Below are positions 2,478 to 20,976 of a stretch of 64,000 nucleotides of DNA, piece by piece. Location: NCBI GenBank assembly GCA_040904965.1, contig JBBDSL010000004.1, positions 101 through 64,100 on the forward strand. The letters run 5' to 3'. Within the stretch, counting starts at the first letter, position 1. Every line of letters starts with the position of its first letter. The notes under the pieces were generated by a model, which was given only the letters and a program-made list of their open reading frames with translations, had not been told where the DNA came from and searched no databases. The position numbers and the translations under genes are program-made. This DNA comes from Wenzhouxiangellaceae bacterium (GTDB lineage Bacteria > Pseudomonadota > Gammaproteobacteria > Xanthomonadales > Wenzhouxiangellaceae).

Positions 2478-2572
2478 GCCCTGGCAGTGCTCTACAGCGC
2501 CGACCTCGAGAGCACACTCGAGACGGTTCAGCGACGCGGCGCGCAAATCGTCAAGCCGATTTTCTCCGACGT
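2478..2572 (+). pseudogene. C-terminal remnant of a VOC/glyoxalase-family gene
   Basis: The translation ALAVLYSADLESTLETVQRRGAQIVKPIFS resembles the last beta-alpha-beta unit of VOC proteins. There is no room for a full gene, and the fragment runs into the repeat block. Confidence 0.3.
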
Positions 2573-2727
2573 CATTTCCGCCTCTCCCCCGTCATTCCCG
2601 CTCCTCCATCCGTCATTCCCGCTCCCCCACCCGTCATTCCCGCGAAGGCGGGAATCTCGAGAATTCCCCACCGATGCTCGAAACAGGCGCATGAACAATC
2701 GCCGACTTGCAAGAAGAGGCGTTCCGG
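2570..2727. repeat. three tandem 20-21-nt units (cgtcattcccgc+pyrimidine run) followed by copy A of a ~96-nt hairpin element
   Basis: Units start at 2570, 2590 and 2611. Copy A (2632-2727) begins cgtcATTCCCgcgaaggcGGGAATctcgagaat, which has the form ATTCCC-N8-GGGAAT. Confidence 0.8.
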
Positions 2728-2781
2728 GACCGGACCCCAACATTGCATAAATTTTCGGGCCGGAATCGCTACGCTGCCCAG

Positions 2782-2913
2782 CACTCCCGCTTCCCCCATC
2801 ACTCCCGCCTCTCCCCCCGTCATTCCCGCGAAGGCGGGAATCTCGAGAATCCCCCACCGATGCTCGAAACAGGCGCATGACCAACCGCCGACTTGCAAGA
2901 AGAGGCATTCCGG
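2782..2913. repeat. copy B of the ~96-nt hairpin element with its pyrimidine-rich leader
   Basis: 2818-2913 is near-identical to 2632-2727 (cgtcattcccgcgaaggcgggaatctcgagaat.ccccaccgatgctcgaaacaggcgcatga.caa.cgccgacttgcaagaagaggc.ttccgg). Confidence 0.85.
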
Positions 2914-2981
2914 CACTAGAATCAATCGAAGGGCAGCATTCCAAAAGGGGGTGTCACCAAATGCGCAACCAACGCCAGCCG

Positions 2982-3278: not shown

Positions 3279-3818
3279 GTGATGAGTGCCTTTATACAGA
3301 TAGTCGAAATTCTTGTATGGCCCGCTACCGTCATAATTGTAGTGATACTGCTTCGTTCTCCGTTGTCGGAGTTGGTCCCTACATTGAATAAGCTTAAATA
3401 TAAAGATCTTGAGCTAGAGTTTGAAAAGGAAGCAAGGGGCATTCTAGCTGATGCCGAGCGGGATCTGCCGGATCCGCCGAAGCCTGAGCCGTCAGAGGTT
3501 GAGGATCACGGAATAAGGTTTAGCCTTGCTCGCCTAGAGCCTTCGACTGAGATACTGGAGTCGTGGCGTCACTTGGAGTTAAAGCTACGCGAGCTGTCTG
3601 GTGGGAATGAGAGAAAGCGCAGCACGGGATATTTGGTTCGCGAACTTGCCAATGAGGGCAGAATATCTAAGGAGACAGAGAGCGTAGTGCTTTCGCTGTC
3701 ATCCCTTAGGAATAAAGTGGCACATACTGATGAAGAGGTAATATCTCGCGCAGCTTCATCATCGTTCAAAGATTCTGTTGCTCGTGTTATTTCAGCTCTG
3801 GAGTCCGAGAGTGCCTAA
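3279..3818 (+). CDS. cassette 1: N-terminal TM helix plus HEPN/DUF4145-like C-terminal domain
   Basis: 179 aa. It has a hydrophobic N-terminus (IVEILVWPATVIIVVILL) and a C-terminal LSSLRNKVAHTD, which fits the HEPN Rx4-6H motif. The TAA stop lies inside the attC core gcctaac. Confidence 0.6.
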   Translation: MMSAFIQIVEILVWPATVIIVVILLRSPLSELVPTLNKLKYKDLELEFEKEARGILADAERDLPDPPKPEPSEVEDHGIRFSLARLEPSTEILESWRHLELKLRELSGGNERKRSTGYLVRELANEGRISKETESVVLSLSSLRNKVAHTDEEVISRAASSSFKDSVARVISALESESA

Positions 3819-3890
3819 CAAAGCCATGAAATCCGCTCCCTACGGTCGCCGGACCTCGTTTCACTCGGCCGTTTATGGCAGGCGTTGGGC
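3813..3890 (+). other. attC site 1
   Basis: gcctaac-aaagccat...atggcaggc-gttgggc. The two ends are inverted complements with RYYYAAC and GTTRRRY cores. Confidence 0.75.
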
Positions 3891-5269: not shown

Positions 5270-5279
5270 AGAGGGGTGC

Positions 5280-5378
5280 GCTTAACATGAAGTTGAAGCT
5301 GCCCAAGGAACCTGTCACGCGGCTTGCTTACGCAACCCGCGAGCCAGAACCGCTTGGCAGCTTAACTTTGTGTTAAGG
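5280..5378 (+). other. attC site 3
   Basis: gcttaacatgaagttgaagctgcccaagg ... ccgcttggcagcttaactttgtgttaagg. The long arms are inverted complements. Confidence 0.75.
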
Positions 5379-5388
5379 CTACAAGTGT

Positions 5389-6138: not shown

Positions 6139-6609
6139 ATGGGTCGAGAATACTGCATTTGCCCGCCAAAGCTCACTACTCTTGAATCTGGTGACACTCC
6201 GACAATTGTCACAAAAGCCTCTCCCTGGACACACCGCAAAGCAGTCGAAAAACTGGCTAGATACTTTCGTCGAGAGTTCAAATATGATTTCGTGCCATTT
6301 CGTGCTGAATACGGGCAATCAGCCGATGATCCACACTATGAAGCCTATCTATTCCACGAGACTCGGTACAATCTTTTATACGAAGACCGCGATACAGAAG
6401 TTGTTTGCGGCGGGGCAGCCTGCTTTTTCCGCACTGTGGAAACCTGGTCTTTAAACTGGGTATGGTTCCATCCATACTTTCGTGGCCGAGGGTTGTTGTG
6501 GAAGTCCTGGGGGAGTTTTCGGTCCAGATATGGAGACTTTCAGATTGAAGAACCCCTGTCGCCGGCAATGAAAAGCTTTCTTAGCAAAATTGAAGGGCCA
6601 ATTAGCTAA
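6139..6609 (+). CDS. cassette 5: GNAT-like acetyltransferase
   Basis: 156 aa. WVWFHPYFRGRGLLWKSW resembles the GNAT motif A (R/Q-x-x-G-x-G/A). Confidence 0.5.
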   Translation: MGREYCICPPKLTTLESGDTPTIVTKASPWTHRKAVEKLARYFRREFKYDFVPFRAEYGQSADDPHYEAYLFHETRYNLLYEDRDTEVVCGGAACFFRTVETWSLNWVWFHPYFRGRGLLWKSWGSFRSRYGDFQIEEPLSPAMKSFLSKIEGPIS

Positions 6610-6666
6610 CGAGTTAGGATAGGTCGTGCGAGCGCAGCGAGCCACGACCTGATCCGGTTGTTGAAC
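6604..6666 (+). other. attC site 5 (homologous to the site at 16536-16594)
   Basis: agctaac...ggtcgtg-cgagcgcagcgagc-cacgacc...gttgaac. The stop TAA is inside the first core. Confidence 0.5.
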
Positions 6667-6878
6667 AAGCCCGGTCGTGATGCTGAGGGGTTCTTTATTT
6701 GCAAACAATTCCGTTTGCTTTTTGGCGGGTAACCGCGTAGCGCGACACGATGTCTTTTTTTAGGGCAAGCGCGGCTGTTGGCTTGTTTCCAAGCCAGTGC
6801 AATCAGGCGGTTTTGTCCATGGATACTTACCTGTCCTCCATGTCAAGCGGGCCGAGGTCTACGCCGTGCCGCTGTGTT

Positions 6879-7067: not shown

Positions 7068-7274
7068 GCTTTGGCCACCTGATTTACTGCCGCGTCGTAG
7101 CGAGGGGCAGTCAGGTGCCGTGGATGGGGTGTTTCGCGACCGAGTGGACCGGAGGCGTAGCCGTAGCTTCGGTGAGGATCCGCGACCGAGCGAAAGGGCG
7201 CAGACGCGGTGACTGGCGGGGCCGTAGCAGACGTGGCGGTGAATTGGGTGGCCCAGGCAATACATGTTGAAGGA

Positions 7275-7379
7275 TCAGACACAGGAAGCCGAGGCCCGAC
7301 CGCGCGTGCCCTGCAGTTTCAGGACCCGAAGGTGTTTACCGTACAGCTCGTCGAAGCGTTTTTGCTCGGATTTGTTCAT
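7275..7379 (-). pseudogene. N-terminal fragment of an IS91-associated tyrosine recombinase
   Basis: MNKSEQKRFDELYGKHLRVLKLQG then a stop. A second, similar fragment (FDELYRKHVRAL) lies at about 16117-16190. The two share the junction aatacatgttgaag. Confidence 0.4.
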
Positions 7380-7578: not shown

Positions 7579-8460
7579 TTACTTTACTTTCGTGCAGGTC
7601 AGGGTGAGCGTGTTTCCGGAGCCCGAAACGTGACAGTCCAATCCAGAGCCTGTGCCGCCAATCCTGTCGGCCAAAGCCTCAAGAGCAAGCGCGTTTCCAG
7701 GACCTTGTCCAAAGCCCAAGCGAATACCATTAAACTCAGTAGTCGCTATGGGAACGCTGCCGTTATCCTGTTGACCTTGCACCGGAATCAAATTGCCATC
7801 CGCGTCGAGGACTTCAATCTCGACAAGCGTCCCATCGGGCAATCTGACTAACGACACGCGGCTACCATCATCATAGGAAACTATGATAATCAAACTACGC
7901 TTTCTTATGGTATTTCCTACACCTCCGCTTAGTCCTCCAATCGGAGTGTCGACTCCAAGATCGCGGCTCACAGATTCAAAATCCGGCAGATAGCCATTAT
8001 CTTCCAGATGCAATCGGATCTGCGAAAAATACGATGCACGCAGTCTACCATCGCTTATATCTCGGACTACGGACGAAGGTACATCCGTCCCCAGCAAAAC
8101 CCCCGAAAGGTCCGACCTGGAAATTGGCGCAACAAGCCGACTTGCGTCCTGTACGGCTTGCTGAAATACACTCTTCTCGGTAACCGGGAAATCGGCGGTA
8201 ACTACCTCGGTCCATTGTACGACGCCGGTATCAAAATCCTCCAAAAATGTCCAACGGTTGTATTTCCGCGTCTCGTTGGTTTCACGATTGGTCACATAGA
8301 TCGGCGTATAACTTCCCGGCGCATTAAGCGCCTGGTGTCTGAACGCGGTATCGGTTGTGCACGAATCGCACAATACCCACCACGCTGAGGATGCAAATAC
8401 ACTTCCTGGAATCGAAAGCCAGATTCCAAGCCACACAATAGCCGTTAGAGTTCTTCTCAT
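7579..8460 (-). CDS. secreted hypothetical protein (signal peptide), in opposite orientation to the array
   Basis: 293 aa with the leader MRRTLTAIVWLGIWLSIPGSVFASS. No family recognised. Confidence 0.55.
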   Translation of the reverse strand: MRRTLTAIVWLGIWLSIPGSVFASSAWWVLCDSCTTDTAFRHQALNAPGSYTPIYVTNRETNETRKYNRWTFLEDFDTGVVQWTEVVTADFPVTEKSVFQQAVQDASRLVAPISRSDLSGVLLGTDVPSSVVRDISDGRLRASYFSQIRLHLEDNGYLPDFESVSRDLGVDTPIGGLSGGVGNTIRKRSLIIIVSYDDGSRVSLVRLPDGTLVEIEVLDADGNLIPVQGQQDNGSVPIATTEFNGIRLGFGQGPGNALALEALADRIGGTGSGLDCHVSGSGNTLTLTCTKVK

Positions 8461-9160: not shown

Positions 9161-9481
9161 ATGGATCGGCGTTCATTTGTAAAAACAGTAAGCATTTCCT
9201 CGTTTATGGTGACCCTGAGTCCCCTTCTCGCCGGCTCGCTTCCTCACGTTTTAGTCAAACAACAACGCTCCCCGAAATCACTGGCGACCACCATCATGGC
9301 GGAATTCGGGCCGGGATTTAAAGTCTTCGAGTATCGAAAGATCGACGGTATGCATCATGCAACCATCGGTCATCTGGGTAACGAGTACCGCGTCTGTTCC
9401 GCCGATTTACGTGCATGGACGATTCTGTCTTACGATGTTCCGGAGGCTGGGGCCGGCAGTAACCGGAAGCGGCTGGTCTAA
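9161..9481 (+). CDS. small protein with twin-arginine (Tat) leader
   Basis: 106 aa. MDRRSFVKTVSISSFMVTLSPLLAG fits S/T-R-R-x-F-x-K followed by an h-region. A GGGGAG RBS lies upstream, and the gene sits directly upstream of the lodA-like gene. Confidence 0.55.
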   Translation: MDRRSFVKTVSISSFMVTLSPLLAGSLPHVLVKQQRSPKSLATTIMAEFGPGFKVFEYRKIDGMHHATIGHLGNEYRVCSADLRAWTILSYDVPEAGAGSNRKRLV

Positions 9482-9560
9482 TGGCCCATTAACAAAAAAG
9501 AGGCCCAGTTTCAGTTACACGTGGGCGCTTGTCCGACAGGGGCGATTAAAGGGAAGAGAC

Positions 9561-11555
9561 ATGGCATCAAAAATTTCGCGCATTCGTATCCATCCGGGTA
9601 TCGGGCTGGCACGCCTGGGTAACAGTGACGAGCACTTTATCGGCCCCGAAGCGCCGGGATGCATATCGGATCCCGGCGGAGAGAACGGACCGGGACCGGA
9701 CGGCGGATCCTACCGTGACGAACAGATGCGGCTGAAGCGCCAGGCGCAGCGTTATCGCATTTATGGATACGATGCCGATGACAATCTGGTTGGCGAAGTG
9801 AATGCGACAATGGCCGGGGTCGAGAAAATTCGATGGCGTGTTCACGTTCGCAATATGAAGGCAGCCAATTACGCTTTTCAGGGCGCCTACCTTTTCGATC
9901 CGTCCAAATACCGGAATCCCGGAATCCAGGGCGATGCAAAAAACCCTATCGATCGGGACCAGCTCATCATAGACCCCGGCCCGGTCACCGTCGATGCCGA
10001 TGTCATGCAGCCGGTAGTCATGACGGGCGACTGCTTTACCGGTATAGACGAAGGCGAGCTGCCGGGCTATCTGCGCTACTGCAATCATGACGTGCCCGAC
10101 CCCAGGCAACCGGTTCGGGTCACATACACGCCGGCGATGGATATCGAGTTGGGCCAACTGCGCCTGGACGACGAGCAACGACTTGTGTTTATTCCGGCAC
10201 CCGGCAAGGCCGAGTGCGTGACCACGCCTCAGGTGCAACTGTCCAATCCGAGCGAGTTTTTCGATCCGCCCAACGGCCCCGATCTGGACGATCCTCTGGT
10301 CAATCAGTTTGCGTATTTCAATGTGCCCGGCTGGTGGGACGACACCTGCGGCGGCGAGATTGATGCCACGGTACTGCTGGATGACGGCACGGTCCTCAGC
10401 ACCCGGGATAACGTGACTTCGCTCGACACAGAGGGGGTGCGCAACGCGACCAACGGCGCCTGGGTTGTGACGGCACCGCCCAAATACGCGCCTTACATGG
10501 TGCACGTGGTCTCGCTTCTGGATCGGGTCTACGAGGCGTTCCCGGAGTCGGATCCGAATCGCGGTTTGACGACCAATTTCTATCGGGATATCTACCCTAT
10601 TTTCGAGCGAGCGGTCAACTATGGCTGGGTAAGCGCCGAGGCGGCCGGCGTGGATCCTACTACCCGAAATCTGGCCCATGGACCCAAGCAGGCCGGTAAC
10701 TTGCTAAGCGCAACGAATCTTGCCGCTTTTGCCGATCCCGGCGAGGCATCGCTCCCGGCCAGAAAGCAGATCTATGGAATCATGCGGCATGCCGACAAGG
10801 GACGGTTGAGCGCGACGCTGCCGCCAGCGCCACCGGAACCCGCAGGCGATCCGGTCGAAGGCGGGGTATCGCGCGGCAATCTGATGCCCAAGTTATGGGG
10901 AACAGGGGGCAAGCCGCTGCAGAACGATCAGCTAGGACACAATTTGCCCAACCAGTATCTGAGTCTCACCGATTGGCAGCTCGCCAGGCTGGACGACTGG
11001 GCGAAAGGGGATTTTGAGCCCGGACAACTTGCCAAGCCTGTCCCGCTTGATGAGCTGCCACTGAAGAGTCGGCCACACGCGCTCGATGCCGCTGCGCTTG
11101 AGCCGACGATCGGCGGCGGCTTTCACCCCGGGATCGAATTTCCGTACTTGATCTGTTATCCGGAATTGTTTGCCGAGGCCTTTCGCGTGAAGGAAGGAAC
11201 AGAGCCGGGCTCGGTCGCAGCCTATATGTCGAGCCCCTGGCACGGAGACTACTGGTCATGCAATGTCGCGTGGTGGCCGGTCCAGCGTCCCGATATTGTT
11301 TTCGACTACGATCAAGCAACCGGCATGCGAACCTATCGGGAATGGTTTCGCGGATACGGGCCGCAGGGCGAGCCGCTATCGGCTACCGACGGTTACAACC
11401 AGATGGTGTATGCATGGCCGAAGCTCGGCATGGTGTTGCCGCACAAAGATCCCGACACCGGCGAGTTTGTAAACGACAACGGGTCCGTTGTATATCAGGA
11501 ATATCAGCGGGATCCAGAGCTGAACGAGCCGCCGAAGAAAAAAGACTGCTACTAG
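9561..11555 (+). CDS. LodA/GoxA-family quinoprotein (CTQ-type amino-acid oxidase family)-like protein
   Basis: Start trimmed to MASKISRIRIHPGIGLARLGNSDEHFIGPE (family N-terminal signature) with the RBS aagggaag. The C-terminal part has GGGFHPGIEFPY and SPWHGDYWSCNVAWWPVQRPD. No signal peptide. Confidence 0.7.
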   Translation: MASKISRIRIHPGIGLARLGNSDEHFIGPEAPGCISDPGGENGPGPDGGSYRDEQMRLKRQAQRYRIYGYDADDNLVGEVNATMAGVEKIRWRVHVRNMKAANYAFQGAYLFDPSKYRNPGIQGDAKNPIDRDQLIIDPGPVTVDADVMQPVVMTGDCFTGIDEGELPGYLRYCNHDVPDPRQPVRVTYTPAMDIELGQLRLDDEQRLVFIPAPGKAECVTTPQVQLSNPSEFFDPPNGPDLDDPLVNQFAYFNVPGWWDDTCGGEIDATVLLDDGTVLSTRDNVTSLDTEGVRNATNGAWVVTAPPKYAPYMVHVVSLLDRVYEAFPESDPNRGLTTNFYRDIYPIFERAVNYGWVSAEAAGVDPTTRNLAHGPKQAGNLLSATNLAAFADPGEASLPARKQIYGIMRHADKGRLSATLPPAPPEPAGDPVEGGVSRGNLMPKLWGTGGKPLQNDQLGHNLPNQYLSLTDWQLARLDDWAKGDFEPGQLAKPVPLDELPLKSRPHALDAAALEPTIGGGFHPGIEFPYLICYPELFAEAFRVKEGTEPGSVAAYMSSPWHGDYWSCNVAWWPVQRPDIVFDYDQATGMRTYREWFRGYGPQGEPLSATDGYNQMVYAWPKLGMVLPHKDPDTGEFVNDNGSVVYQEYQRDPELNEPPKKKDCY

Positions 11556-11580
11556 TGGGCGACTGGTAGCCGCTGCCTTC

Positions 11581-12762
11581 ATGATGAAGAAACTGCATGC
11601 TGCTTGGGACGTGTTGGTCATTGGCGCAGGACCCGCCGGCGCAGCAACAGCATTCGAAGTGGCGCGGGCTGGTTATTCGGTGCTGGTCATCGAACAGCGG
11701 ACAAGCCCGGGCAACAAATTTGGCGAATCTTTGCCGCCGGCGGCTGTGCCGGTGGTTGAGCGGCTGTCAGGCCCGCTCACCGCGGAGACCATGCATCAGT
11801 GGGGAATTGCCAGAACCCGCGGGAACATTGCCGCCTGGCAGTCGCCCGCCCCCGAACAATCCGATTTTTTCTTCACCCCCGAACGGCATGGCTTATCGAT
11901 CAATCGCACGCTGTTTGACCGTGCAATCATCAATTCCGCCTGTGCCGAGGGCGCCGTTTTTCAATTTGGAACCCGGGTCGACCAAGTGCATCGCGCACAG
12001 GTCGGCAACTGGCGCCTGAGGCTCAACGGTGGTAACGGTGGTGGCGAGACCTATGCGCGATTTGTGGTCGATGCGTCCGGGCGTGCGTCGATGCTGGGCC
12101 GCAGGCTGGGTGTCGAACGTTATTGCCTCGATCATCTTTTCGCCTTCGGCCAGACCTGGCTCGCCGCAGAAGAAGACAATGACCCTTATACCCGGATCGA
12201 AGCGGTGGACGATGGCTGGTGGTACAGCCAGAAGATTCCGGTCGACCGCGACCATACCAGCGCCCGCCGGGTCGTTTTCCATACCGATCGTGACCTACCC
12301 GTGGCGTTGCAGGCCGGCAATCATGCTGGATTTTCCAGGCTTCTGGAACGAACAGAAATCGTCCGCTCCTTGTTGCACGCCCAAGGCTACCGCCCGCAGG
12401 AAGATGTTCGCGGCGCTGATGCCGCCAGCTCCCGAATGAGCCAGTTTGCGGGAGACGGCTGGCTGGCGGTGGGAGACGCCTCGCAGGCCTTCGACCCGCT
12501 CTCCTCACAGGGCATCTTCAAAGCGCTAATCGACGGCGCTGACGCCGGGCGACAATTGTGCAACGCGCTGCGCGATCCAAGCCGGGCGCGAACGCTGTTT
12601 CGTGATTATGCGCAACGCCAGGCGCGCAAGTGGCTGGATTATTTACGCCAACTCCAATACGTTTATTTTTCCCAGAAGCGCTGGTCCGAACGGCCTTTCT
12701 GGAATCGTCGCGGGCACGAAGATCCCGGCGTCAACCGATACCAGATGAGAGAAGTATCATGA
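11581..12762 (+). CDS. LodB/GoxB-like FAD-dependent flavoprotein
   Basis: 393 aa with the dinucleotide fold WDVLVIGAGPAGAATA. It sits immediately after the lodA-like gene, as in known lodAB pairs. Confidence 0.7.
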   Translation: MMKKLHAAWDVLVIGAGPAGAATAFEVARAGYSVLVIEQRTSPGNKFGESLPPAAVPVVERLSGPLTAETMHQWGIARTRGNIAAWQSPAPEQSDFFFTPERHGLSINRTLFDRAIINSACAEGAVFQFGTRVDQVHRAQVGNWRLRLNGGNGGGETYARFVVDASGRASMLGRRLGVERYCLDHLFAFGQTWLAAEEDNDPYTRIEAVDDGWWYSQKIPVDRDHTSARRVVFHTDRDLPVALQAGNHAGFSRLLERTEIVRSLLHAQGYRPQEDVRGADAASSRMSQFAGDGWLAVGDASQAFDPLSSQGIFKALIDGADAGRQLCNALRDPSRARTLFRDYAQRQARKWLDYLRQLQYVYFSQKRWSERPFWNRRGHEDPGVNRYQMREVS

Positions 12763-15491
12763 GAAAGTTGCTACCTGTGGTTGTAATCACGGTACTCGCT
12801 TTGTGCGGTTCCGGTAACGCAAATGCGTCTCCAGCGCACGATAATCCCAGCCCTGCCCCCGAGTCCTCGGCCTCGATGCAGACCCCTCAGAATGACGGCC
12901 AGACGATTCCCCGGCCCGTTTTCCAACTTGGGGACACGCCCAGCACGCCGTTTCCGGATGAATCTGAACGTGCCAAAGCGTTCGTGGATTTTTTCAATCA
13001 GACCTACTTTGCTGATAGTCAGATTACGCTGCCGTTGTTGACCAAGTCGCAGGTCGTCTGGTTCCCTCCGCAAACTGAAGGAGACACCTCGCTGGAGCTG
13101 GTTGTCCGAACTACCGCCGGAGAAACGGCCAATTGCGAAGATCCGCAGGGGTATCCGATCGTTTGCGACGATGATTTCTCCACCGGCGAGTTCTGCAAAG
13201 CGTGTCATGACAGCGTCCTGTTTGTCGAAGGTGGCGGATTGCCGCAGATGGCATACTTTTCCGAACCTGATTTTACTGAGCAGCACGAGACCTGGCTTGC
13301 CAACTGGTCGCAGTACGGAGACTGGAACGCGAATATCATGCGCCTGGCAACGCGAGACCCGATCTGGCAGGCACAGATCGAAACCGAAACCAACAAGCAT
13401 CCGTATGCCGATCCGGCGGTCATTCAGGACGTGTGCTTCAGCTGCCATGGCGAGATGGGTGAGCGCCAGCTCAAATTTGACCATGGCGCCGAACAGGTTT
13501 TTTGCACGGATATTTTCTACGCCACCATACCCGGCCTCGAAGGAGACTTCGCCCGCGGCAAGCCTTACGTGCCCACCGGCGACTGTGAGCCCATTCCCGA
13601 CAAGCCGATCGCCGACCACCCGAATCTGTATGCCAAATACGGCGCGCTCGCGCGAGACGGCGTTTCCTGCGAAACCTGCCATCGTATCGGCCCTGAAAAC
13701 GGCCGCGGGCGCTGGGACGGGACCGACTTCAGCATATTCTACGGCATGAAAAATCCGGGCCCGGACGCACCGATTCCTAACGTGTCAAGGCGCCAGACGG
13801 CGAACCCGAACCCATTGGAATATGAGTTTACCGCCACCTTCGACTACGATATGCAAACCATCATGGCACCGGACACGACCGAAAGCCTTGATACTGAAGT
13901 CATGTTGCGCGACGACAACTTGCACATGGCTCAGGCACTCAACGAGGCCACCGGTGATACCTATCTGGGGCAGGCGGTGATCTGCGGCACCTGTCATGTG
14001 TTGATCGTTCCCCAGATTCCAACAGCCTTCAAGCCTGAAGCGCCGGTACCTGCCAGCAATGACCCTGACGGCAAGTATCCTTTTTACAAAAGACCGGATG
14101 CGTGTGACAAGGAAACCTTTGATAAGGCGACCAATGGTATCTACGGCAATCCGTTAACCGACAACTGCGTCGCGCTCGGTTACGAGCAGGCGACCTATCT
14201 GGAGTGGATCAACAGCGACTTCGCGTCTGAAGAAGACAACGAAAACACCTGCCAGGGTTGTCATATGCCGCTGGTGACCAACCCAAATGATCCTACCGAT
14301 CACACCGCGATCATGGCGCAGTCCACGCAGGGCCTGACGCCCAAGGATTACCGGCGTCATCGGCTCATGGGCATCAATCTGCCGGTCTTCGAGATGTTCG
14401 TGCAATTTCCGGAAGTGCTCGGCATCGCGACGTTCGACGATCTGGTGCCGCCATTGGGTATATCCATCACCGGCGAAGAAGCGAAGTTTGTCCAGCACGC
14501 CTTGTTGAACGGCCAGATGGCGATAGTCGAGCAAGCCACCAGCCAGGCCAACGGCAATGGGTTGCAGCCGGATTCCGGCCAGAAGGCGCCGCAGGCGGCG
14601 ACCGAGATCGTCATTGACGATTTAACGCTGAACTCCAATTCGTTGACGGCGGACATCACGGTCATCAACAATGCCGGCCACAAGTTCCCCTCCGGCGCCG
14701 GATTTCGACGCGGTTTCCTGCGCTTTGAGGTCTTTAACGAGGCCGGCGCGTTGCTCTGGGTCTCGGGCGCCACCAACCCCTTTGGTGCCATCTGCAACGG
14801 ACCCTGCAAGCAGGATGCCAGCGGCAAATACAATCTGCTCGATAGCGAGGTTACCGGTGGCGATCCGGCGAAGCTGCAGCCCCACCATTCGATAATCACC
14901 CGGCAGAGCCAGGTGCAGATCTATGAGGTGCAGGCGGTCGATGACACCGGAACCCTCACTTCCCGAACTCTGTCGCTGTTCTACGATGCCAAGGATAATC
15001 GACTGCTGCCGCGCGGTTTCAAACAGCCGGGAGAGCTTGGCTGCGAGGAAAATTCCCGCGCTGGCACTGAAATTTTTGGAATCGCCCAGTGCTCCGCAGC
15101 CTACGCCACGGAATCGCAAATCGAAATGCCACTTACGATCGGCAGCAGCATAGCCGCTGATCCCCATTACACGGATTCTACGCTTGCAGGCTCCGATCAG
15201 ATTAGTTATCACATCCCGCTGGCAGACATGAACGGAACCCCAAATTCGATCCGCGTGACGATGGAGTATCAGACAATCCCGCCCTCCTTCCTTGCATCAA
15301 GGTTTGAAGACGGATTCGACAAAGAAAAAAATGCGTTCCTGCAGGCAACCGAGCGAAGCATTTATCTGACAAGCCATCTGAACACTGACCTAGCGCTCAA
15401 AAGCGAACATCCCGAGAATCCAGATCTGACCTTTTCCCGAAACTGGACAACCAGTATTTACCAAACAGCGTCCAACATCGATCGGGATTGA
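12759..15491 (+). CDS. secreted pentahaem c-type cytochrome
   Basis: Start trimmed to MRKLLPVVVITVLALCGSGNANA (Sec leader), overlapping the lodB-like stop (ATGA). It has five CXXCH motifs (CKACH, CFSCH, CETCH, CGTCH, CQGCH) and a NNAGHKFPSG motif typical of multihaem families. Confidence 0.8.
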   Translation: MRKLLPVVVITVLALCGSGNANASPAHDNPSPAPESSASMQTPQNDGQTIPRPVFQLGDTPSTPFPDESERAKAFVDFFNQTYFADSQITLPLLTKSQVVWFPPQTEGDTSLELVVRTTAGETANCEDPQGYPIVCDDDFSTGEFCKACHDSVLFVEGGGLPQMAYFSEPDFTEQHETWLANWSQYGDWNANIMRLATRDPIWQAQIETETNKHPYADPAVIQDVCFSCHGEMGERQLKFDHGAEQVFCTDIFYATIPGLEGDFARGKPYVPTGDCEPIPDKPIADHPNLYAKYGALARDGVSCETCHRIGPENGRGRWDGTDFSIFYGMKNPGPDAPIPNVSRRQTANPNPLEYEFTATFDYDMQTIMAPDTTESLDTEVMLRDDNLHMAQALNEATGDTYLGQAVICGTCHVLIVPQIPTAFKPEAPVPASNDPDGKYPFYKRPDACDKETFDKATNGIYGNPLTDNCVALGYEQATYLEWINSDFASEEDNENTCQGCHMPLVTNPNDPTDHTAIMAQSTQGLTPKDYRRHRLMGINLPVFEMFVQFPEVLGIATFDDLVPPLGISITGEEAKFVQHALLNGQMAIVEQATSQANGNGLQPDSGQKAPQAATEIVIDDLTLNSNSLTADITVINNAGHKFPSGAGFRRGFLRFEVFNEAGALLWVSGATNPFGAICNGPCKQDASGKYNLLDSEVTGGDPAKLQPHHSIITRQSQVQIYEVQAVDDTGTLTSRTLSLFYDAKDNRLLPRGFKQPGELGCEENSRAGTEIFGIAQCSAAYATESQIEMPLTIGSSIAADPHYTDSTLAGSDQISYHIPLADMNGTPNSIRVTMEYQTIPPSFLASRFEDGFDKEKNAFLQATERSIYLTSHLNTDLALKSEHPENPDLTFSRNWTTSIYQTASNIDRD

Positions 15492-15812: not shown

Positions 15813-15819
15813 ACATAAC
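15813..15819 (+). other. orphan attC first core (ACATAAC) abutting an IS remnant
   Basis: acataac-gaa-ttagattctatgttggacgtcaagc. The same junction architecture occurs at 20543 (gtctaac-gaa-gcagattctatgttggaagtcaagc). Confidence 0.5.
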
Positions 15820-15841
15820 GAATTAGATTCTATGTTGGACG

Positions 15842-16105
15842 TCAAGCGACTTTTCGCTGACTTGGATCGAACTGCTCGCCGTTTTTCATCAGAGCGAACG
15901 CAATCCGGATCAGTTTGCGTCCCAGAACAATATAGGCTTGGGTGGACTTCATTCCGCGATCCGCGAACCGCTCCAGGTAAGGCTTGAAACCGAAGCGTTC
16001 CGCGGCGGCTCTGGCCGCATTGAAAATGAGTCGCTGATACTTGCGGTGGCCCTTTTTTTGTCCAGTTTGCGCCGGCCAGCGAGTCGGGAGACCCAAGTAA
16101 TACAT
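15842..16105 (-). pseudogene. IS110/IS1111-family transposase C-terminal remnant
   Basis: KKGHRKYQRLIFNAARAAAERFGFKPYLERFADRGMKSTQAYIVLGRKLIRIAFALMKNGEQFD resembles the Transposase_20 tail. About 270 nt are near-identical to 20556-20830. Confidence 0.6.
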
Positions 16106-16193
16106 GTTGAAGAATCAGCCACCGGAAACCCGCCCGCCCGGGCGTCCTTTCAATTCAGGGCCCGCACGTGCTTGCGGTACAGCTCGTCGAAGC

Positions 16194-16313
16194 ATTATTG
16201 AGCTAGCTAAGAATTTCGGTTACAGTCGGAAGCAGCTGAGGGAAATTGAGGCCCTTATTGAGGAACATTACGATGAGCTCATTGGTGCATGGCAAGAGCA
16301 CTTCGGCAGTTGA
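16194..16313 (+). pseudogene. DUF4160-like gene, 5'-truncated
   Basis: Only the C-terminal IIELAKNFGYSRKQLREIEALIEEHYDELIGAWQEHFGS remains. The upstream part is replaced by IS/recombinase debris. Confidence 0.4.
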
Positions 16314-16581
16314 AGTGACTAATATCTCGACTTTTGGGATCTGGCTCTTGGTCCGAGAAAAAGAGCTGTTTTTGGCGTACGAAGATTTTCCCTGGTTCAA
16401 GGACCGGCCAGTCAGAGAAATTCTAAATGTAGAGGAGCCGCAACCCGAACATTTCTACTGGCCTGAGTTGGATGTGGACCTCACACAAGAGACCATCGAA
16501 CATCCCGAGCGGTTTCCAAATCGGGCGAAGCACATAGCGAATAAGGGTAGATCGCGCGAGAGCAGCGAGCCGCGATCTTAA
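16273..16581 (+). CDS. DUF2442 domain protein
   Basis: Start trimmed to MSSLVHG. The sequence FGIWLLVREKELFLAYEDFPWFKDRPVREILNVEEPQPEHFYWPELDVDL matches the DUF2442 pattern (fPWl...W..lDvDl). This protein is the usual partner of DUF4160. Confidence 0.65.
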   Translation: MSSLVHGKSTSAVEVTNISTFGIWLLVREKELFLAYEDFPWFKDRPVREILNVEEPQPEHFYWPELDVDLTQETIEHPERFPNRAKHIANKGRSRESSEPRS

Positions 16582-16594
16582 CCGGTGGTTGAAC
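16536..16594 (+). other. attC-like site homologous to attC5
   Basis: gatcgcg-cgagagcagcgagc-cgcgatc...gttgaac. The stem differs from attC5 (ggtcgtg/cacgacc) but still pairs, and the same loop and 3' flank follow. Confidence 0.45.
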
Positions 16595-16657
16595 AAGCCC
16601 GGTCGTGATGGTTAGACGTTATGTTTTCTCACGGTGAATTTGAGGTAAAATCGCGGT

Positions 16658-16900
16658 ATGGCTAATATCACCCAAATTGAACGAGAGTTGCTAGGTCTCC
16701 CTGCCGCCGAACGAGAACGACTTGCTCTTAGAGCATGGGAGAGCCTGGTTGAAAGTGAAGAGGCGGCGTCTGATCCCAATATTGATCCGGACGGCCTCGA
16801 ACTAGCCAACGAGCGCGACAAGGAGCTGGAGCGTGGAGAAGTGGATGCAGTAGAAGAGAAAGAATTCCGCCGTTGGACGGGCGGAATGAATGAAGGTTGA
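16658..16900 (+). CDS. addiction-module antitoxin (TIGR02574-like)
   Basis: 80 aa. ELLGLPAAERERLALRAWESL followed by an acidic tail. It overlaps the toxin gene start. Confidence 0.6.
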   Translation: MANITQIERELLGLPAAERERLALRAWESLVESEEAASDPNIDPDGLELANERDKELERGEVDAVEEKEFRRWTGGMNEG

Positions 16901-17183
16901 GTATCATCCAAGTACCATCACCGATTTAAACCGCGCACTCGACTTCTACGAACAGAAACGGATTGGACTCGGTGGCGAGCTCCGGGAGGAAATCTATCAG
17001 ACAATTTCACGTATCGCCGCAAACCCCCTTATCTATCGCCCCATTGCAGGGCAGATGAGACGTTGTTTTGTGCATCGCTTTCCCTTCTCCATCCTGTACC
17101 GGGTTGTAGACGCCGATTTGCTTCGAGTGTTGGTCATCCGACATCATCGTCAGCATTCGCAGTTTGGTATGGAGCGGAGATGA
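16890..17183 (+). CDS. parE: RelE/ParE-family type II toxin
   Basis: 97 aa with ...NPLIYRPIAG..RRCFVHRFPFSILYRVVDADLLRVLVIRHHRQH, the typical ParE/RelE layout. Confidence 0.7.
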   Translation: MKVEYHPSTITDLNRALDFYEQKRIGLGGELREEIYQTISRIAANPLIYRPIAGQMRRCFVHRFPFSILYRVVDADLLRVLVIRHHRQHSQFGMERR

Positions 17184-20542: not shown

Positions 20543-20549
20543 GTCTAAC
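20543..20549 (+). other. attC first core (GTCTAAC) interrupted by an IS remnant
   Basis: Lies 7 nt after the cassette stop and is followed directly by the IS110-like terminal sequence. Confidence 0.5.
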
Positions 20550-20571
20550 GAAGCAGATTCTATGTTGGAAG

Positions 20572-20976
20572 TCAAGCTGTTTTGAGCCGATTTGGATCGA
20601 ACTGCTCGCCGTTTTTCATCAGAGAGAACGCAATCCGGATCAGTTTGCGTCCCAGAGCAATATAGGCTTCGGCGGACTTCACTCCGCGATCTTTGAACCG
20701 CTCCAGGTATGGCTTGAAACGGAAGCGCCCGGCGGCTCTGGACGCATTGAAAATCAGTCGCCGATACTCGGCGTTGCCCTTTTTGGTTGGCTTGCGCTGG
20801 AGGAGCGCGTGCCCCGACCAGGATCGACTGCGATGCGAAGGCTTTGATTCAATATCGCGCGTGGTCCCGGCTGGAATACGGCCGGGACCTGTGCGGTTCG
20901 TTCCCCCATGACTTACGGACGGAGTTTGCTGGGAAGTTCGACTGGTTGCGTGGCGGAGATGGCATTGCAGAAGCAC
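20572..20976 (-). pseudogene. IS110/IS1111-family transposase remnant (longer copy)
   Basis: ...WSGHALLQRKPTKKGNAEYRRLIFNASRAAGRFRFKPYLERFKDRGVKSAEAYIALGRKLIRIAFSLMKNGEQFD. No intact N-terminal DEDD domain. Confidence 0.6.

What the first reader, a model, noticed from the sequence alone, without database searches (positions are those of the whole stretch)
9161..15491. LodA-like quinoprotein and LodB-like flavoprotein wired to a Tat-leader small subunit and a secreted pentahaem cytochrome
Four co-oriented, tightly spaced genes.

- A 106-aa protein has a twin-arginine leader (MDRRSFVKT...).
- A 664-aa protein has the LodA/GoxA N-terminal signature (RIHPGIGLARLGNS) and C-terminal SPWHGDYWSC..AWWPVQRP, but no signal peptide.
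- A 393-aa FAD protein is in the position of LodB/GoxB, the flavoprotein that matures the cysteine tryptophylquinone cofactor in the cytoplasm.
- A 910-aa Sec-exported protein, ATGA-coupled to the flavoprotein gene, has five CXXCH motifs.

Characterised LodA/GoxA systems are two-gene oxidases that pass electrons to O2 and release H2O2. A periplasmic multihaem partner instead suggests a quinoprotein dehydrogenase feeding a haem chain, functionally analogous to quinohaemoprotein amine dehydrogenases. The leaderless, cofactor-containing catalytic subunit could reach the periplasm by Tat hitch-hiking on the small subunit. The PGIE motif here is preceded by His (FHPGIE); whether that column is the CTQ cysteine must be checked by alignment. 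The module sits inside an integron cassette array, so it is probably horizontally acquired.
Basis: partly seen in the sequence, partly recalled or inferred. Interest (0 to 1): 0.9.

Follow-up and report, generated by a model that had tools for sequence, protein, structure and literature searches.

The report
LodA-like quinoprotein with Tat escort and pentahaem partner
Four conserved genes encode an uncharacterised relative of the bacterial amino-acid oxidases LodA and GoxA, its cofactor-maturing flavoprotein, a small protein with an export signal and a five-haem cytochrome, and the gene neighbourhoods suggest a periplasmic enzyme that passes electrons to haem rather than to oxygen.

Summary
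In detail: four co-oriented genes lie at 9161-15491.

- **Small protein (106 aa):** carries a twin-arginine (Tat) export signal.
- **LodA/GoxA-family protein (664 aa):** has no signal peptide. The cofactor residues Asp563, Cys567 and Trp572 are intact.
- **LodB/GoxB-like flavoprotein (393 aa):** the expected maturase.
- **Cytochrome (910 aa):** signal peptide, five CXXCH motifs, and a start codon that overlaps the flavoprotein stop (ATGA).

The His in FHPGIE is not the cofactor cysteine. It aligns with GoxA's FHPGVE and with LodA Cys448.

In 72 of 80 related genome loci the small Tat protein sits directly upstream of the LodA-like gene; five of the eight misses are contig-edge cuts. The cytochrome is restricted to deep-branching marine lineages: 12 of the 80 loci plus the window, and 7 of 7 assessable metagenome loci. 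The ATGA overlap is kept in 11 of those 12 loci.

A second, very divergent LodA/LodB pair in soil metagenomes is linked to the same cytochrome family. Stand-alone relatives of the cytochrome carry a sixth haem in an N-terminal cytochrome P460 domain. Both LodA-linked clades lack it.

The best reading is a periplasmic cysteine tryptophylquinone (CTQ) dehydrogenase-like module. That is inferred, not shown. The integron claim is only weakly supported. I class it as a new variant of a known kind.

The parts
9161..9481 (+). Small subunit candidate, 106 aa: twin-arginine signal peptide followed by a mature domain of about 60 residues (one helix and four strands) with no cofactor motif
   Evidence: ORF. 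No Pfam or NCBIfam family. An ORF with the same features lies directly upstream of the LodA-like gene in 72 of 80 loci: RR in 73/73 sequences, F at +2 in 71/73, and conserved FGGGF and IEHxGNxYxVxSxDLxDW motifs. 34 representative clusters in the exhaustive search, almost all small proteins of about 76-110 aa. AlphaFold pLDDT about 95 for residues 41-90. No significant PDB fold match.
9167..9184 (+). Twin-arginine motif RRSFVK
   Evidence: Translation; column conservation.
9561..11555 (+). LodA/GoxA-family protein, 664 aa, predicted to carry cysteine tryptophylquinone; no signal peptide
   Evidence: Pfam LodA_N 3e-42 and LodA_C 5e-26. NCBIfam GoxA 194 bits and LodA 117 bits, far below the equivalog cut-offs of 750 and 600. 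PDB sequence hits to LodA (3weu, 2ymw) and GoxA (6byw and others). 374 homologues at E<=1e-10; the 120 listed are 62-83% identical and start at the same conserved N-terminus.
11121..11138 (+). FHPGIE motif: His522 is the counterpart of the GoxA active-site His and of LodA Cys448; it is not the CTQ cysteine
   Evidence: Alignments to LodA (mCPGIE) and GoxA (FHPGVE). Invariant in alignment A1. Coordinates.
11232..11291 (+). Cofactor motif SPWHGDYWSCNVAWWPVQRP: Asp563 (11247-11249), CTQ Cys567 (11259-11261), CTQ Trp572 (11274-11276)
   Evidence: Aligns with LodA PWQADFFNC (Asp512/Cys516) and YWWPPQSP (Trp581). The LodA residue numbers are given in PMC4417212. Invariant in 15 subfamily members. 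Coordinates.
11581..12762 (+). LodB/GoxB-like FAD monooxygenase, 393 aa, the cytoplasmic maturase candidate; no signal peptide, GxGxxG at residues 14-19
   Evidence: NCBIfam GoxB 212 bits, LodB 198 bits, QhpG 163 bits. Pfam Trp_halogenase and FAD_binding_3. Found directly downstream of the LodA-like gene in every locus with enough sequence.
12759..15491 (+). Pentahaem c-type cytochrome, 910 aa, with a signal peptide: an N-terminal non-haem domain, five haem sites and a C-terminal beta-sandwich region carrying the GHKFPSG motif (14676-14696)
   Evidence: CXXCH at 13194-13208, 13434-13448, 13668-13682, 13983-13997 and 14250-14264. All five are invariant even in homologues only 30% identical. AlphaFold model pTM 0.85. 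The only significant PDB fold match is the T. tepidum pentahaem cytochrome c552, 5ze8 (E 5e-8, TM 0.68 on the target). A weak sequence hit to the same entry. The ATGA overlap with the flavoprotein gene is conserved in 11 of 12 other loci.

Best explanation
The four genes form one module for a periplasmic quinoprotein oxidoreductase of the LodA/GoxA family. The proposed mechanism has three steps.

1. **Maturation (inferred from LodA/LodB and GoxA/GoxB).** The 664-aa protein folds in the cytoplasm. The FAD protein helps to convert Trp572 and Cys567 into cysteine tryptophylquinone (CTQ).
2. **Export (inferred).** The folded, signal-less enzyme binds the small protein. It is carried across the membrane by the Tat system on that protein's twin-arginine signal (hitch-hiking).
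3. **Catalysis (inferred).** In the periplasm the enzyme oxidises an amine or amino acid; the substrate is unknown. In the marine lineages that carry the fourth gene, it hands the two electrons to the Sec-exported pentahaem cytochrome instead of, or in competition with, O2.

The cytochrome is a derivative of a P460-pentahaem fusion family that has lost its own catalytic P460 head. I propose that the CTQ enzyme supplies electrons in its place.

What is shown here: family membership, the cofactor residues, the signal sequences, and the gene linkage and its conservation. Complex formation, export route, substrate and direction of electron flow are inferred.
For: **Family and cofactor.** LodA_N and LodA_C domains, with Asp563, Cys567 and Trp572 invariant. 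The LodB-like gene is always adjacent.

**Export.**
- The LodA-like protein starts inside the conserved domain and has no signal.
- A small ORF with an invariant RRxF motif lies directly upstream in 72 of 80 loci, across Alpha-, Beta- and Gammaproteobacteria.
- Its mature domain has no conserved Cys and only one nearly invariant His. It is therefore unlikely to need Tat for a cofactor of its own.

**Cytochrome linkage.**
- Close homologues lie next to lodAB in 12 genome loci, in Poseidonocella, in the closest relative, and in 7 of 7 assessable metagenome loci.
- Only these four gene families are conserved among the cytochrome-bearing loci.
- The ATGA stop/start overlap is kept in 11 of 12 loci.
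- A second LodA clade, only 25-27% identical, is again followed by LodB and a member of the same cytochrome family, with a 4-nt overlap in L109.

**Electron-wire argument.** Stand-alone relatives have six CXXCH motifs, and those tested by Pfam carry an N-terminal Cytochrome_P460 domain. Both LodAB-linked clades have five haems and no P460. A six-haem stand-alone clade nests between them (NJ bootstrap 98-100%).

**Haem ligands.** The alignment holds at least six invariant His or Met residues outside the CXXCH motifs. That is enough for five six-coordinate, electron-transfer-type haems.

**Precedent.** CTQ passing electrons to haem occurs in quinohaemoprotein amine dehydrogenase (established knowledge; PMC11951088).
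Against: - Nothing here measures activity, localisation or complex formation.
- Most of the subfamily (the crown clade, 59 loci) lacks the cytochrome and has no conserved c-type cytochrome nearby. Those enzymes must use O2 or an unlinked acceptor, so the enzyme may be an oxidase throughout.
- The second cytochrome-linked clade and Gilvimarinus algae lack the Tat small ORF in cis. Export of the LodA-like protein does not obviously require it there.
- Canonical LodA is secreted without any known signal, so the lack of a signal peptide proves little.
- The small protein has no significant structural relative among known Tat escort subunits.
- The one solved relative of the cytochrome (5ze8) is described as low-potential and of unknown function (title cited). 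That may not suit an acceptor for CTQ.
- The mirror-tree analysis did not single out a small-protein/LodA pairing.
Confidence: 0.55

Rival explanations
1. The enzyme is an ordinary H2O2-producing oxidase like LodA and GoxA. The pentahaem cytochrome deals with the peroxide (as a peroxidase or by reductive detoxification) or uses it as an oxidant, rather than accepting electrons from CTQ.
For: All characterised LodA-family enzymes are oxidases (PMC4417212; PMC11951088). Another branch of the family is fused to a catalase-like haem domain, which has been suggested to remove H2O2 at source (bioRxiv 10.64898/2026.03.27.714854). The cytochrome is dispensable in most of the subfamily.
Against: There is no sequence or fold similarity to di-haem peroxidases, MauG or catalases. 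The only structural relative is a pentahaem c552. Enough invariant His and Met residues exist for all five haems to be six-coordinate. The repeated link between LodAB adjacency and loss of the P460 catalytic head fits a swap of electron source better than a detoxifier.
Confidence: 0.2
2. The cytochrome is a periplasmic maturation factor for the tryptophylquinone cofactor, playing the role that the di-haem enzyme MauG plays for methylamine dehydrogenase.
For: The gene is translationally coupled to the maturase gene lodB. Haem enzymes do mature tryptophylquinones in other systems (PMC7876137).
Against: The crown clade keeps the identical cofactor motif and LodB without any cytochrome. There is no similarity to MauG. 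LodB or GoxB alone suffices for LodA and GoxA (PMC11951088).
Confidence: 0.07
3. The small Tat protein is not an export escort. It is an independent periplasmic partner, for example an inhibitor or immunity protein, or a regulator of the enzyme. The LodA-like protein would leave the cell by the unknown route used by LodA.
For: The best, non-significant, fold resemblances are to BLIP/PepSY-like and DsbG N-terminal protein-binding domains. Cytochrome-linked modules without the small ORF exist. Canonical LodA and GoxA lack both a signal peptide and such a partner (PMC4417212).
Against: A cofactor-less domain of about 60 residues has no evident reason to use Tat rather than Sec unless it travels with a folded partner (inference). 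It is co-inherited with the LodA-like gene in 72 of 80 loci and lies immediately upstream of it in each.
Confidence: 0.25
4. The cytochrome gene is an unrelated neighbour, and the four-gene appearance is coincidental.
For: The window module lies in a variable, low-GC island full of unrelated small genes.
Against: The linkage recurs in at least 20 independent loci of different classes, with a conserved 4-nt overlap, and in a second divergent clade.
Confidence: 0.02

Closest known systems
LodA (L-lysine epsilon-oxidase) and GoxA (glycine oxidase) with their flavoprotein maturases LodB and GoxB
   Same: The same two Pfam domains. The same Asp-x3-Cys and WWP cofactor residues. An adjacent FAD monooxygenase gene. 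No signal peptide on the catalytic protein. An active-site His as in GoxA (FHPG[IV]E).
   Different: - Only about 25-30% identical; scores are far below the NCBIfam equivalog cut-offs (194 against 750; 117 against 600).
- The Cys-to-Trp spacing is 5 residues, against 65 in LodA.
- A Tat-signal small protein gene lies upstream, and in this lineage a pentahaem cytochrome gene is coupled downstream.
- Members of this subfamily were left ungrouped ('None') in the 2015 survey, which mentions neither feature.
Quinohaemoprotein amine dehydrogenase (QHNDH; QhpA/B/C with QhpD, QhpG and others)
   Same: A CTQ cofactor whose electrons go to c-type haems in the periplasm. A flavoprotein monooxygenase homologous to LodB (QhpG, 163 bits) takes part in cofactor formation. 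The Cys-Trp spacing is short (from my own knowledge, 6 residues in the QHNDH gamma subunit).
   Different: In QHNDH the CTQ sits on a small cross-linked gamma subunit made with a radical-SAM enzyme. The haems are on a di-haem alpha subunit unrelated to this cytochrome. None of those genes is present here.
Membrane-associated flavoprotein dehydrogenases with a small Tat subunit and a multihaem cytochrome c subunit (FAD-glucose dehydrogenase gamma-alpha-beta of Burkholderia cepacia; gluconate 2-dehydrogenase). Recalled from my own knowledge, not tested.
   Same: The same operon logic: a small Tat-signal subunit that escorts a signal-less, cofactor-loaded catalytic subunit, plus a separately exported multihaem cytochrome c that takes the electrons.
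   Different: No sequence or fold similarity was detected for any of the three components (no Pfam hit; no PDB fold hit for the small protein). The catalytic cofactor is CTQ, not FAD.
Pentahaem cytochrome c552 of Thermochromatium tepidum (PDB 5ze8)
   Same: The only significant fold match (E 5e-8, TM 0.68 on the target). Five haem sites. A beta-sandwich carrying the H-x-[FM]-P-[ST]-G motif.
   Different: 5ze8 has 385-435 residues against 910 here, about 11% identity in the structural alignment. Its function is unknown, and it has no known link to a quinoprotein.
Cytochrome P460-pentahaem fusion proteins (uncharacterised; e.g. Owenweeksia 'cytochrome P460 family protein')
   Same: Homologous over about 80% of the length (27-33% identity). 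All five CXXCH motifs and the C-terminal motifs are invariant.
   Different: They carry an extra N-terminal P460 domain with a sixth haem and stand alone in the genome. The window protein lacks that domain and is coupled to lodAB.
Tat hitch-hiking pairs such as the [NiFe]-hydrogenase small and large subunits (own knowledge)
   Same: One subunit carries the RR signal. The cofactor-loaded partner has none and is made in the cytoplasm.
   Different: Here the signal-bearing partner is a tiny protein without a cofactor, and complex formation is untested.

Membership tests
LodA/GoxA family of CTQ quinoproteins | LodA_N and LodA_C domains | tested here: met
   Pfam 3e-42 and 5e-26, both above the gathering cut-offs.
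LodA/GoxA family of CTQ quinoproteins | Cys and Trp aligning with LodA Cys516 and Trp581, and the Asp four residues before the Cys | tested here: met
   Cys567, Trp572 and Asp563 in the HMMER alignments to 3weu. Invariant in alignment A1. The Cys-Trp spacing is only 5 residues.
LodA/GoxA family of CTQ quinoproteins | Adjacent lodB/goxB-type flavoprotein gene | tested here: met
   NCBIfam GoxB 212 bits and LodB 198 bits. The gene starts 25 nt downstream and is conserved in all complete loci.
LodA/GoxA family of CTQ quinoproteins | Orthology to LodA or GoxA (NCBIfam equivalog score) | tested here: not met
   194 bits against a cut-off of 750 (GoxA); 117 against 600 (LodA). It is a family member but not an orthologue, so substrate specificity cannot be transferred.
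LodA/GoxA family of CTQ quinoproteins | CTQ actually formed; amine or amino-acid oxidation with O2 as acceptor and H2O2 as product | not testable with these tools
   Needs protein chemistry.
Tat hitch-hiking enzyme complexes | One subunit has a twin-arginine signal and the catalytic subunit has none | tested here: met
   RRSFVK in the small protein, with RR invariant in 73/73 sequences. The LodA-like N-terminus aligns from residue 8 with residue 3 of LodA and has no hydrophobic leader.
Tat hitch-hiking enzyme complexes | The two proteins form a complex before export, and export depends on Tat | not testable with these tools
   No multimer prediction was available. The mirror-tree test did not discriminate.
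Quinohaemoprotein amine dehydrogenase (QHNDH) | CTQ on a small cross-linked gamma subunit, a radical-SAM QhpD, and a di-haem alpha subunit | tested here: not met
   No such genes in the module. Only the QhpG-like flavoprotein similarity, 163 bits against a cut-off of 240.
T. tepidum c552-type pentahaem cytochromes | [quoted passage not shown] | tested here: met
   Five motifs. Foldseek E 5e-8, probability 1.00, TM 0.68 on 5ze8. Sequence E 0.0017 over residues 618-710.
Cytochrome P460 family | P460 domain (PF16694) with its own haem | tested here: not met
   No hit in the window protein or in the close homologue P0128. Present in distant relatives P0191, P0198, P0231 and P0182. CXXCH counts are five against six.
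Integron gene cassette | Cassette bounded by attC sites in an array next to an intI integrase | tested here: inconclusive
   attC-like hairpins at 5275-5383 (z -5) and 3813-3890. None flanks 9161-15491. No tyrosine-recombinase motif in the window. Only a regex and hairpin search was possible, not a calibrated attC model.

The most novel reading that the evidence does not exclude
This subfamily would be the first LodA-type CTQ enzymes that work as periplasmic dehydrogenases. They would be matured by a flavoprotein in the cytoplasm and exported folded by piggy-backing on a dedicated mini-protein with a Tat signal. In two independently evolved lineages they would plug into a pentahaem wire that has discarded its own P460 catalytic head. 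That would be a modular swap of the catalytic unit on a conserved haem chain, and a third architecture for tryptophylquinone dehydrogenases alongside methylamine dehydrogenase and QHNDH.
Probability: 0.4. Interest if true: 0.8.

Novelty: new variant of a known kind. Interest (0 to 1): 0.68.

Why it matters
CTQ is currently known in three enzymes: QHNDH, LodA and GoxA (2025 review). The LodA family is treated as H2O2-producing oxidases with antimicrobial roles.

A widespread, strongly conserved subfamily (62-83% identity among the 120 closest homologues, from several proteobacterial classes) turns out to carry a dedicated Tat-signal partner. In marine lineages it also carries a dedicated pentahaem cytochrome. 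That would redirect expectations for these enzymes, from secreted peroxide generators to periplasmic, respiration-linked amine or amino-acid oxidation.

It also gives a first functional handle on two families with no known function: the small Tat protein and the c552/P460-pentahaem cytochromes. Cultured strains that carry each version of the module are named under the next steps.

Tried and rejected
- **Word-index homologue search with the small protein.** It found only itself. The exhaustive search was needed.
- **Fold search of the small-protein model.** No significant PDB match (best E 0.14), so no link to known Tat escort subunits could be made.
- **Mirror-tree correlation.** Small/LodA 0.89, small/LodB 0.93, LodA/LodB 0.95. 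This shows co-inheritance only and gives no specific evidence of contact.
- **Flanking repeats as IS110-type transposase fragments.** This was my guess; Pfam found nothing, so I dropped it.
- **Integrase search.** The tyrosine-recombinase motif scan gave no credible hit, and Pfam runs on the larger neighbouring ORFs found no integrase.
- **attC search.** Terminal 7-mer complementarity plus DNA folding gave two candidates upstream and none bounding the module.
- **Replacement cytochrome in the cytochrome-less loci.** A few class I cytochrome c genes lie nearby (L023, L021, L076, L014/L049). By my rough estimate that is about the number expected by chance.
- **LodA-like genes on plasmids.** All are below 32% identity, from other subfamilies. 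The three loci examined had no cytochrome and no Tat small ORF.
- **Literature.** I found no paper linking LodA-like proteins to a Tat partner or a multihaem cytochrome. The library lacks most subscription journals.
- **Not compared.** I could not compare the small protein with the 138-aa 'small gene' that the 2015 survey reports between lodA and lodB in its group ID, because no sequence was in hand.

Full report
**1. The observation**

The four ORFs are present exactly as described, all on the + strand.

| Gene | Coordinates | Length |
|---|---|---|
| Small protein | 9161-9481 | 106 aa |
| LodA-like protein | 9561-11555 | 664 aa |
| Flavoprotein | 11581-12762 | 393 aa |
| Cytochrome | 12759-15491 | 910 aa |

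The gaps between genes are 79 nt and 25 nt. The last two genes overlap by 4 nt (ATGA).

- The 664-aa protein hits Pfam LodA_N (3e-42) and LodA_C (5e-26).
- The 393-aa protein scores 212 bits on NCBIfam GoxB, 198 on LodB and 163 on QhpG.
- The small protein and the cytochrome have no family above cut-off in Pfam or NCBIfam.
- The cytochrome has exactly five CXXCH motifs, at residues 146, 226, 304, 409 and 498.

**2. Cofactor residues**

FHPGIE aligns with LodA 'mCPGIE' and GoxA 'GGGFHPGVE'. That column is an active-site residue, which I recognise from memory as Cys448 in LodA and the corresponding His in GoxA. It is not the cofactor cysteine.

The cofactor cysteine is Cys567 in SPWHGDYWSC, which aligns with LodA PWQADFFNC. 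The Asp four residues earlier corresponds to LodA Asp512. The cofactor tryptophan is Trp572, the second W of AWWPVQRP, which aligns with LodA YWWPPQSP (Trp581). The LodA residue numbers are those in PMC4417212.

All of these residues are invariant in an alignment of 15 subfamily members. The Cys-to-Trp spacing is only five residues, against 65 in LodA.

The NCBIfam scores are far below the equivalog cut-offs: 194 against 750 for GoxA, and 117 against 600 for LodA. The protein is a family member but not an orthologue of either enzyme, so its substrate is unknown.

**3. The subfamily and what was known**

The homologue search returned 374 proteins at E <= 1e-10. The best 120 are 62-83% identical and mostly about 666 aa long. 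They come from Alcaligenaceae, Rhizobiales including Nitrobacter, Rhodobacteraceae, marine Gammaproteobacteria, Nitrotoga and others.

The 2015 genome survey of the family lists four members: Nitrobacter sp. Nb-311A NB311A_15287, Nham_2642, Salipiger mucosus salmuc_02447 and Pusillimonas PT7_3642. It assigns them to phylogenetic group 'None'. It does not mention cytochromes, twin-arginine signals or signal peptides.

A 2025 review still lists CTQ only in QHNDH, LodA and GoxA. I found no paper on a Tat partner or a multihaem partner of LodA-like proteins. The searchable library is incomplete.

**4. Conservation of the small Tat protein**

I scanned one genome per species with the LodA-like alignment. 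This gave 80 loci.

- A small ORF with an N-terminal RRx[FLIVM] motif lies directly upstream of the LodA-like gene in 72 of them.
- Five of the eight misses are contig-edge truncations, and one has a damaged LodA gene.
- Gilvimarinus algae (L001) and Chenggangzhangella (L043) lacked it in the automated scan; I confirmed the absence by eye only for L001.
- RR is present in 73/73 sequences, Phe at +2 in 71/73 and Lys at +4 in 58/73.
- The mature domain of about 60 residues has conserved FGGGF and IEHxGNxYxVxSxDLxDW motifs, no conserved Cys and only one nearly invariant His.
- The exhaustive HMMER search found 34 representative clusters, almost all small proteins of about 76-110 aa.
- AlphaFold predicts one helix and a four-stranded sheet with pLDDT about 95. 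Foldseek finds nothing significant in the PDB. The best resemblances (E 0.14-1.2) are to small protein-binding domains: DUF2874, BLIP-like and the DsbG N-terminal domain.

A protein with no cofactor of its own, a Tat signal, and a fixed position in front of a signal-less enzyme that must acquire its cofactor in the cytoplasm is the pattern expected for an export escort. That is inference. I could not test complex formation. Distance-matrix correlations show only that the three genes are inherited together.

**5. Conservation of the cytochrome**

- *From the LodA side.* A full-length homologue (58-69% identical) follows lodB in 12 of the 80 loci. These are Gilvimarinus algae, two Primorskyibacter, Tropicibacter, Salipiger mucosus, other Rhodobacteraceae and several marine gammaproteobacterial MAGs.
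- *In the LodA tree.* These are the deep-branching lineages. The three 'negative' loci among them are truncated contigs. The large crown clade of 59 loci has only the three-gene module and no conserved c-type cytochrome nearby.
- *Module content.* Clustering all ORFs from the cytochrome-bearing loci leaves just these four families as conserved.
- *Translational coupling.* The ATGA overlap of the lodB stop with the cytochrome start is kept in 11 of the 12 loci. It is also present in Poseidonocella and in the closest relative, which is 83% identical.
- *From the cytochrome side.* A metagenome scan gave eight loci with homologues at least 50% identical. Seven have lodB or lodA immediately upstream, and the eighth is cut at the contig edge.

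**6. What the cytochrome is**

All full-length close homologues have an N-terminal signal peptide. By eye, roughly a third have a lipobox-like motif; the strict pattern matched 10 of 58. The window's 'LALC' is ambiguous.

The AlphaFold model (pTM 0.85) has a single significant PDB match. It is the pentahaem cytochrome c552 of Thermochromatium tepidum, 5ze8 (E 5e-8, TM 0.68 on the target). Sequence search found the same entry weakly, through the GHKFPSG beta-sandwich motif. A later preprint describes that protein as being of unknown function.

More distant relatives are 27-33% identical over about 80% of the length. They keep all five CXXCH motifs and add an N-terminal Cytochrome_P460 domain with a sixth haem. 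The one examined in its genomic context (Owenweeksia) stands alone, and 68 of the 72 distant metagenome loci have no lodA or lodB nearby.

**7. A second, independent link**

Three soil-metagenome loci (L109, L112, L130) carry a quite different LodA-like protein. It is 25-27% identical to the window's, with clear LodA_N and LodA_C domains and the motif PWQADFNEC...WWWPAQRP. Each locus also has a LodB-like gene and a cytochrome of about 1030 aa from the same family. That cytochrome has five CXXCH motifs, no P460 domain and is 33-34% identical to the window's. In L109 it overlaps lodB by 4 nt.

In an NJ tree of the cytochromes with 200 bootstrap replicates:

| Grouping | Bootstrap support |
|---|---|
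| Window clade (A) | 100% |
| Soil clade (B) | 100% |
| A + six-haem stand-alone clade (P0177, P0178) | 98% |
| A + stand-alone clade + B | 100% |
| A + B alone | 0% |

In this sample every LodAB-linked cytochrome has lost the P460 head and every unlinked relative keeps it. The loss and the linkage seem to have happened twice.

The simplest reading is that the pentahaem body is an electron wire whose catalytic electron source can be exchanged. The source is a P460 haem domain in cis, or a CTQ enzyme in trans. This is the strongest argument I have for the dehydrogenase reading over the peroxide-handling reading.

These soil loci have no Tat small ORF, so cytochrome coupling does not strictly require it.

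**8. Mechanism proposed**

- The LodB-like flavoprotein and the LodA-like protein have no signal sequences. By analogy with LodA/LodB and GoxA/GoxB, CTQ is made in the cytoplasm (PMC7876137; PMC11951088).
- The folded enzyme then needs a route that accepts folded proteins. The conserved Tat-signal mini-protein offers one.
- The cytochrome is exported separately by Sec and receives its haems in the periplasm, which is general knowledge of cytochrome c maturation.
- Substrate oxidation at CTQ would reduce the haem chain. The next acceptor is unknown.
- In the crown clade without the cytochrome, the enzyme may use O2 or an unlinked carrier.

Only the parts list and its conservation are shown. Each mechanistic step is inferred.

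**9. Rivals**

- *Peroxide handling by the cytochrome.* This remains plausible. Another LodA branch is fused to a catalase-like domain. However, no peroxidase-like feature was found.
- *A MauG-like maturation role.* This is unlikely, because the crown clade keeps the same cofactor motif without the cytochrome.
- *The small protein as an inhibitor or immunity protein rather than an escort.* This cannot be excluded.
- *Chance neighbourhood.* This is excluded.

**10. Setting in the window**

| Region | GC content |
|---|---|
| Module (9161-15491) | 57.9% |
| Surrounding stretch, about 2.6-22 kb | 50.8% |
| Rest of the contig | 64-66% |

The surrounding stretch holds co-oriented small ORFs, mostly without family matches. 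It also holds two toxin-antitoxin-like pairs, HNH, SnoaL, glyoxalase and HAD genes, and several repeated segments.

Two attC-like inverted repeats lie upstream, but none flanks the module, and no integrase motif was found by the regex scan of the window. In the closest relative the same four genes sit in an ordinary chromosomal neighbourhood.

Horizontal acquisition into a variable island is likely. 'Integron cassette' is not established.

**11. Verdict**

The finding is real and goes beyond what is described for the LodA family. It is a new architectural variant of a known enzyme kind, supported by unusually consistent comparative evidence. Its function is untested.

Noticed in passing
L109:477-6670, L112:2656-8919, L130:2753-10114 (soil metagenome contigs): A second, very divergent LodA-like/LodB-like pair (25-33% identical to the window's) sits next to a P460-less five-haem member of the same cytochrome family. 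L109 has a 4-nt overlap between lodB and the cytochrome. L130 has the order LodA-cytochrome-ORF-LodB. None has a Tat small ORF.
   Followed up: partly
window 11250-11252 (Tyr564) and LodA-like residues 331, 348, 386, 428, 431, 466: Seven positions are fixed differently in cytochrome-linked and cytochrome-less LodA-like proteins. Tyr564 lies next to Asp563 and three residues before the CTQ Cys. It is Tyr in 12/13 linked proteins and Phe in 58/59 unlinked ones. Position 466 shows the same Tyr/Phe switch. This could mark an electron or proton path, or it could simply reflect lineage.
   Followed up: partly
L022:2069-5092 (Primorskyibacter sp. 2E107): A six-haem P460-type paralogue of the cytochrome (28% identical) lies about 3 kb upstream of the four-gene module in the same genome.
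   Followed up: partly
P0024, P0031 (Vibrio maritimus), P0043: Some LodA-like proteins of this subfamily are about 805 aa long. They have a C-terminal extension of about 140 residues of unknown nature, not an N-terminal fusion to the small protein.
   Followed up: no
P0125, P0127, P0128 (Gilvimarinus algae), P0143, P0155 and others: Several cytochrome homologues are 1050-1095 aa long. In the two that were aligned (P0128, P0155) the extra length is a C-terminal extension, Cys-rich and internally repeated in P0128.
   Followed up: no
L001:7000-8001 (Gilvimarinus algae): This isolate has LodA-like, LodB-like and cytochrome genes but no Tat small ORF upstream. An unrelated 167-aa ORF lies there instead. 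The small gene may be elsewhere in the genome or dispensable.
   Followed up: partly
L023:11586-12446; L021:11347-11685: In two genomes with only the three-gene module, a class I cytochrome c gene lies just downstream of lodB. In L023 it is di-haem and on the same strand. In L021 it is mono-haem and on the opposite strand. Across 68 loci I judge this to be about chance level.
   Followed up: partly
window 5275-5383 and 3813-3890: attC-like imperfect inverted repeats with AAC...GTT ends. The first folds strongly as single-stranded DNA (z -5). They lie among co-oriented small ORFs with no family match.
   Followed up: partly
window 15816-16057 vs 20546-20784; 6595-6699 vs 16523-16627; 7241-7364 vs 16081-16200: Direct repeats 77-88% identical are scattered on both sides of the module. 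ORF fragments within them have no Pfam match, and the element is unidentified.
   Followed up: partly
window 16104-16581 and 16658-17183: Two toxin-antitoxin-like pairs lie just downstream of the module: DUF4160/DUF2442, and an Unstab_antitox/ParE pair with overlapping genes.
   Followed up: partly
window 2565-2920: Short tandem-like repeats built on the unit CCGTCATTCCCGC, in two blocks 186 nt apart, at the boundary between the high-GC core genes and the low-GC island.
   Followed up: no
window 7579-8460 (- strand): A 293-aa ORF with a signal-peptide-like N-terminus and no family match lies about 700 nt upstream of the module on the opposite strand.
   Followed up: no
L169:2041-8461: In the closest relative the module directly follows a cluster of TonB-dependent receptor, SapC, Cupin_8 and Trp_halogenase-like genes on the same strand. 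This could hint at the uptake or processing of the substrate.
   Followed up: no
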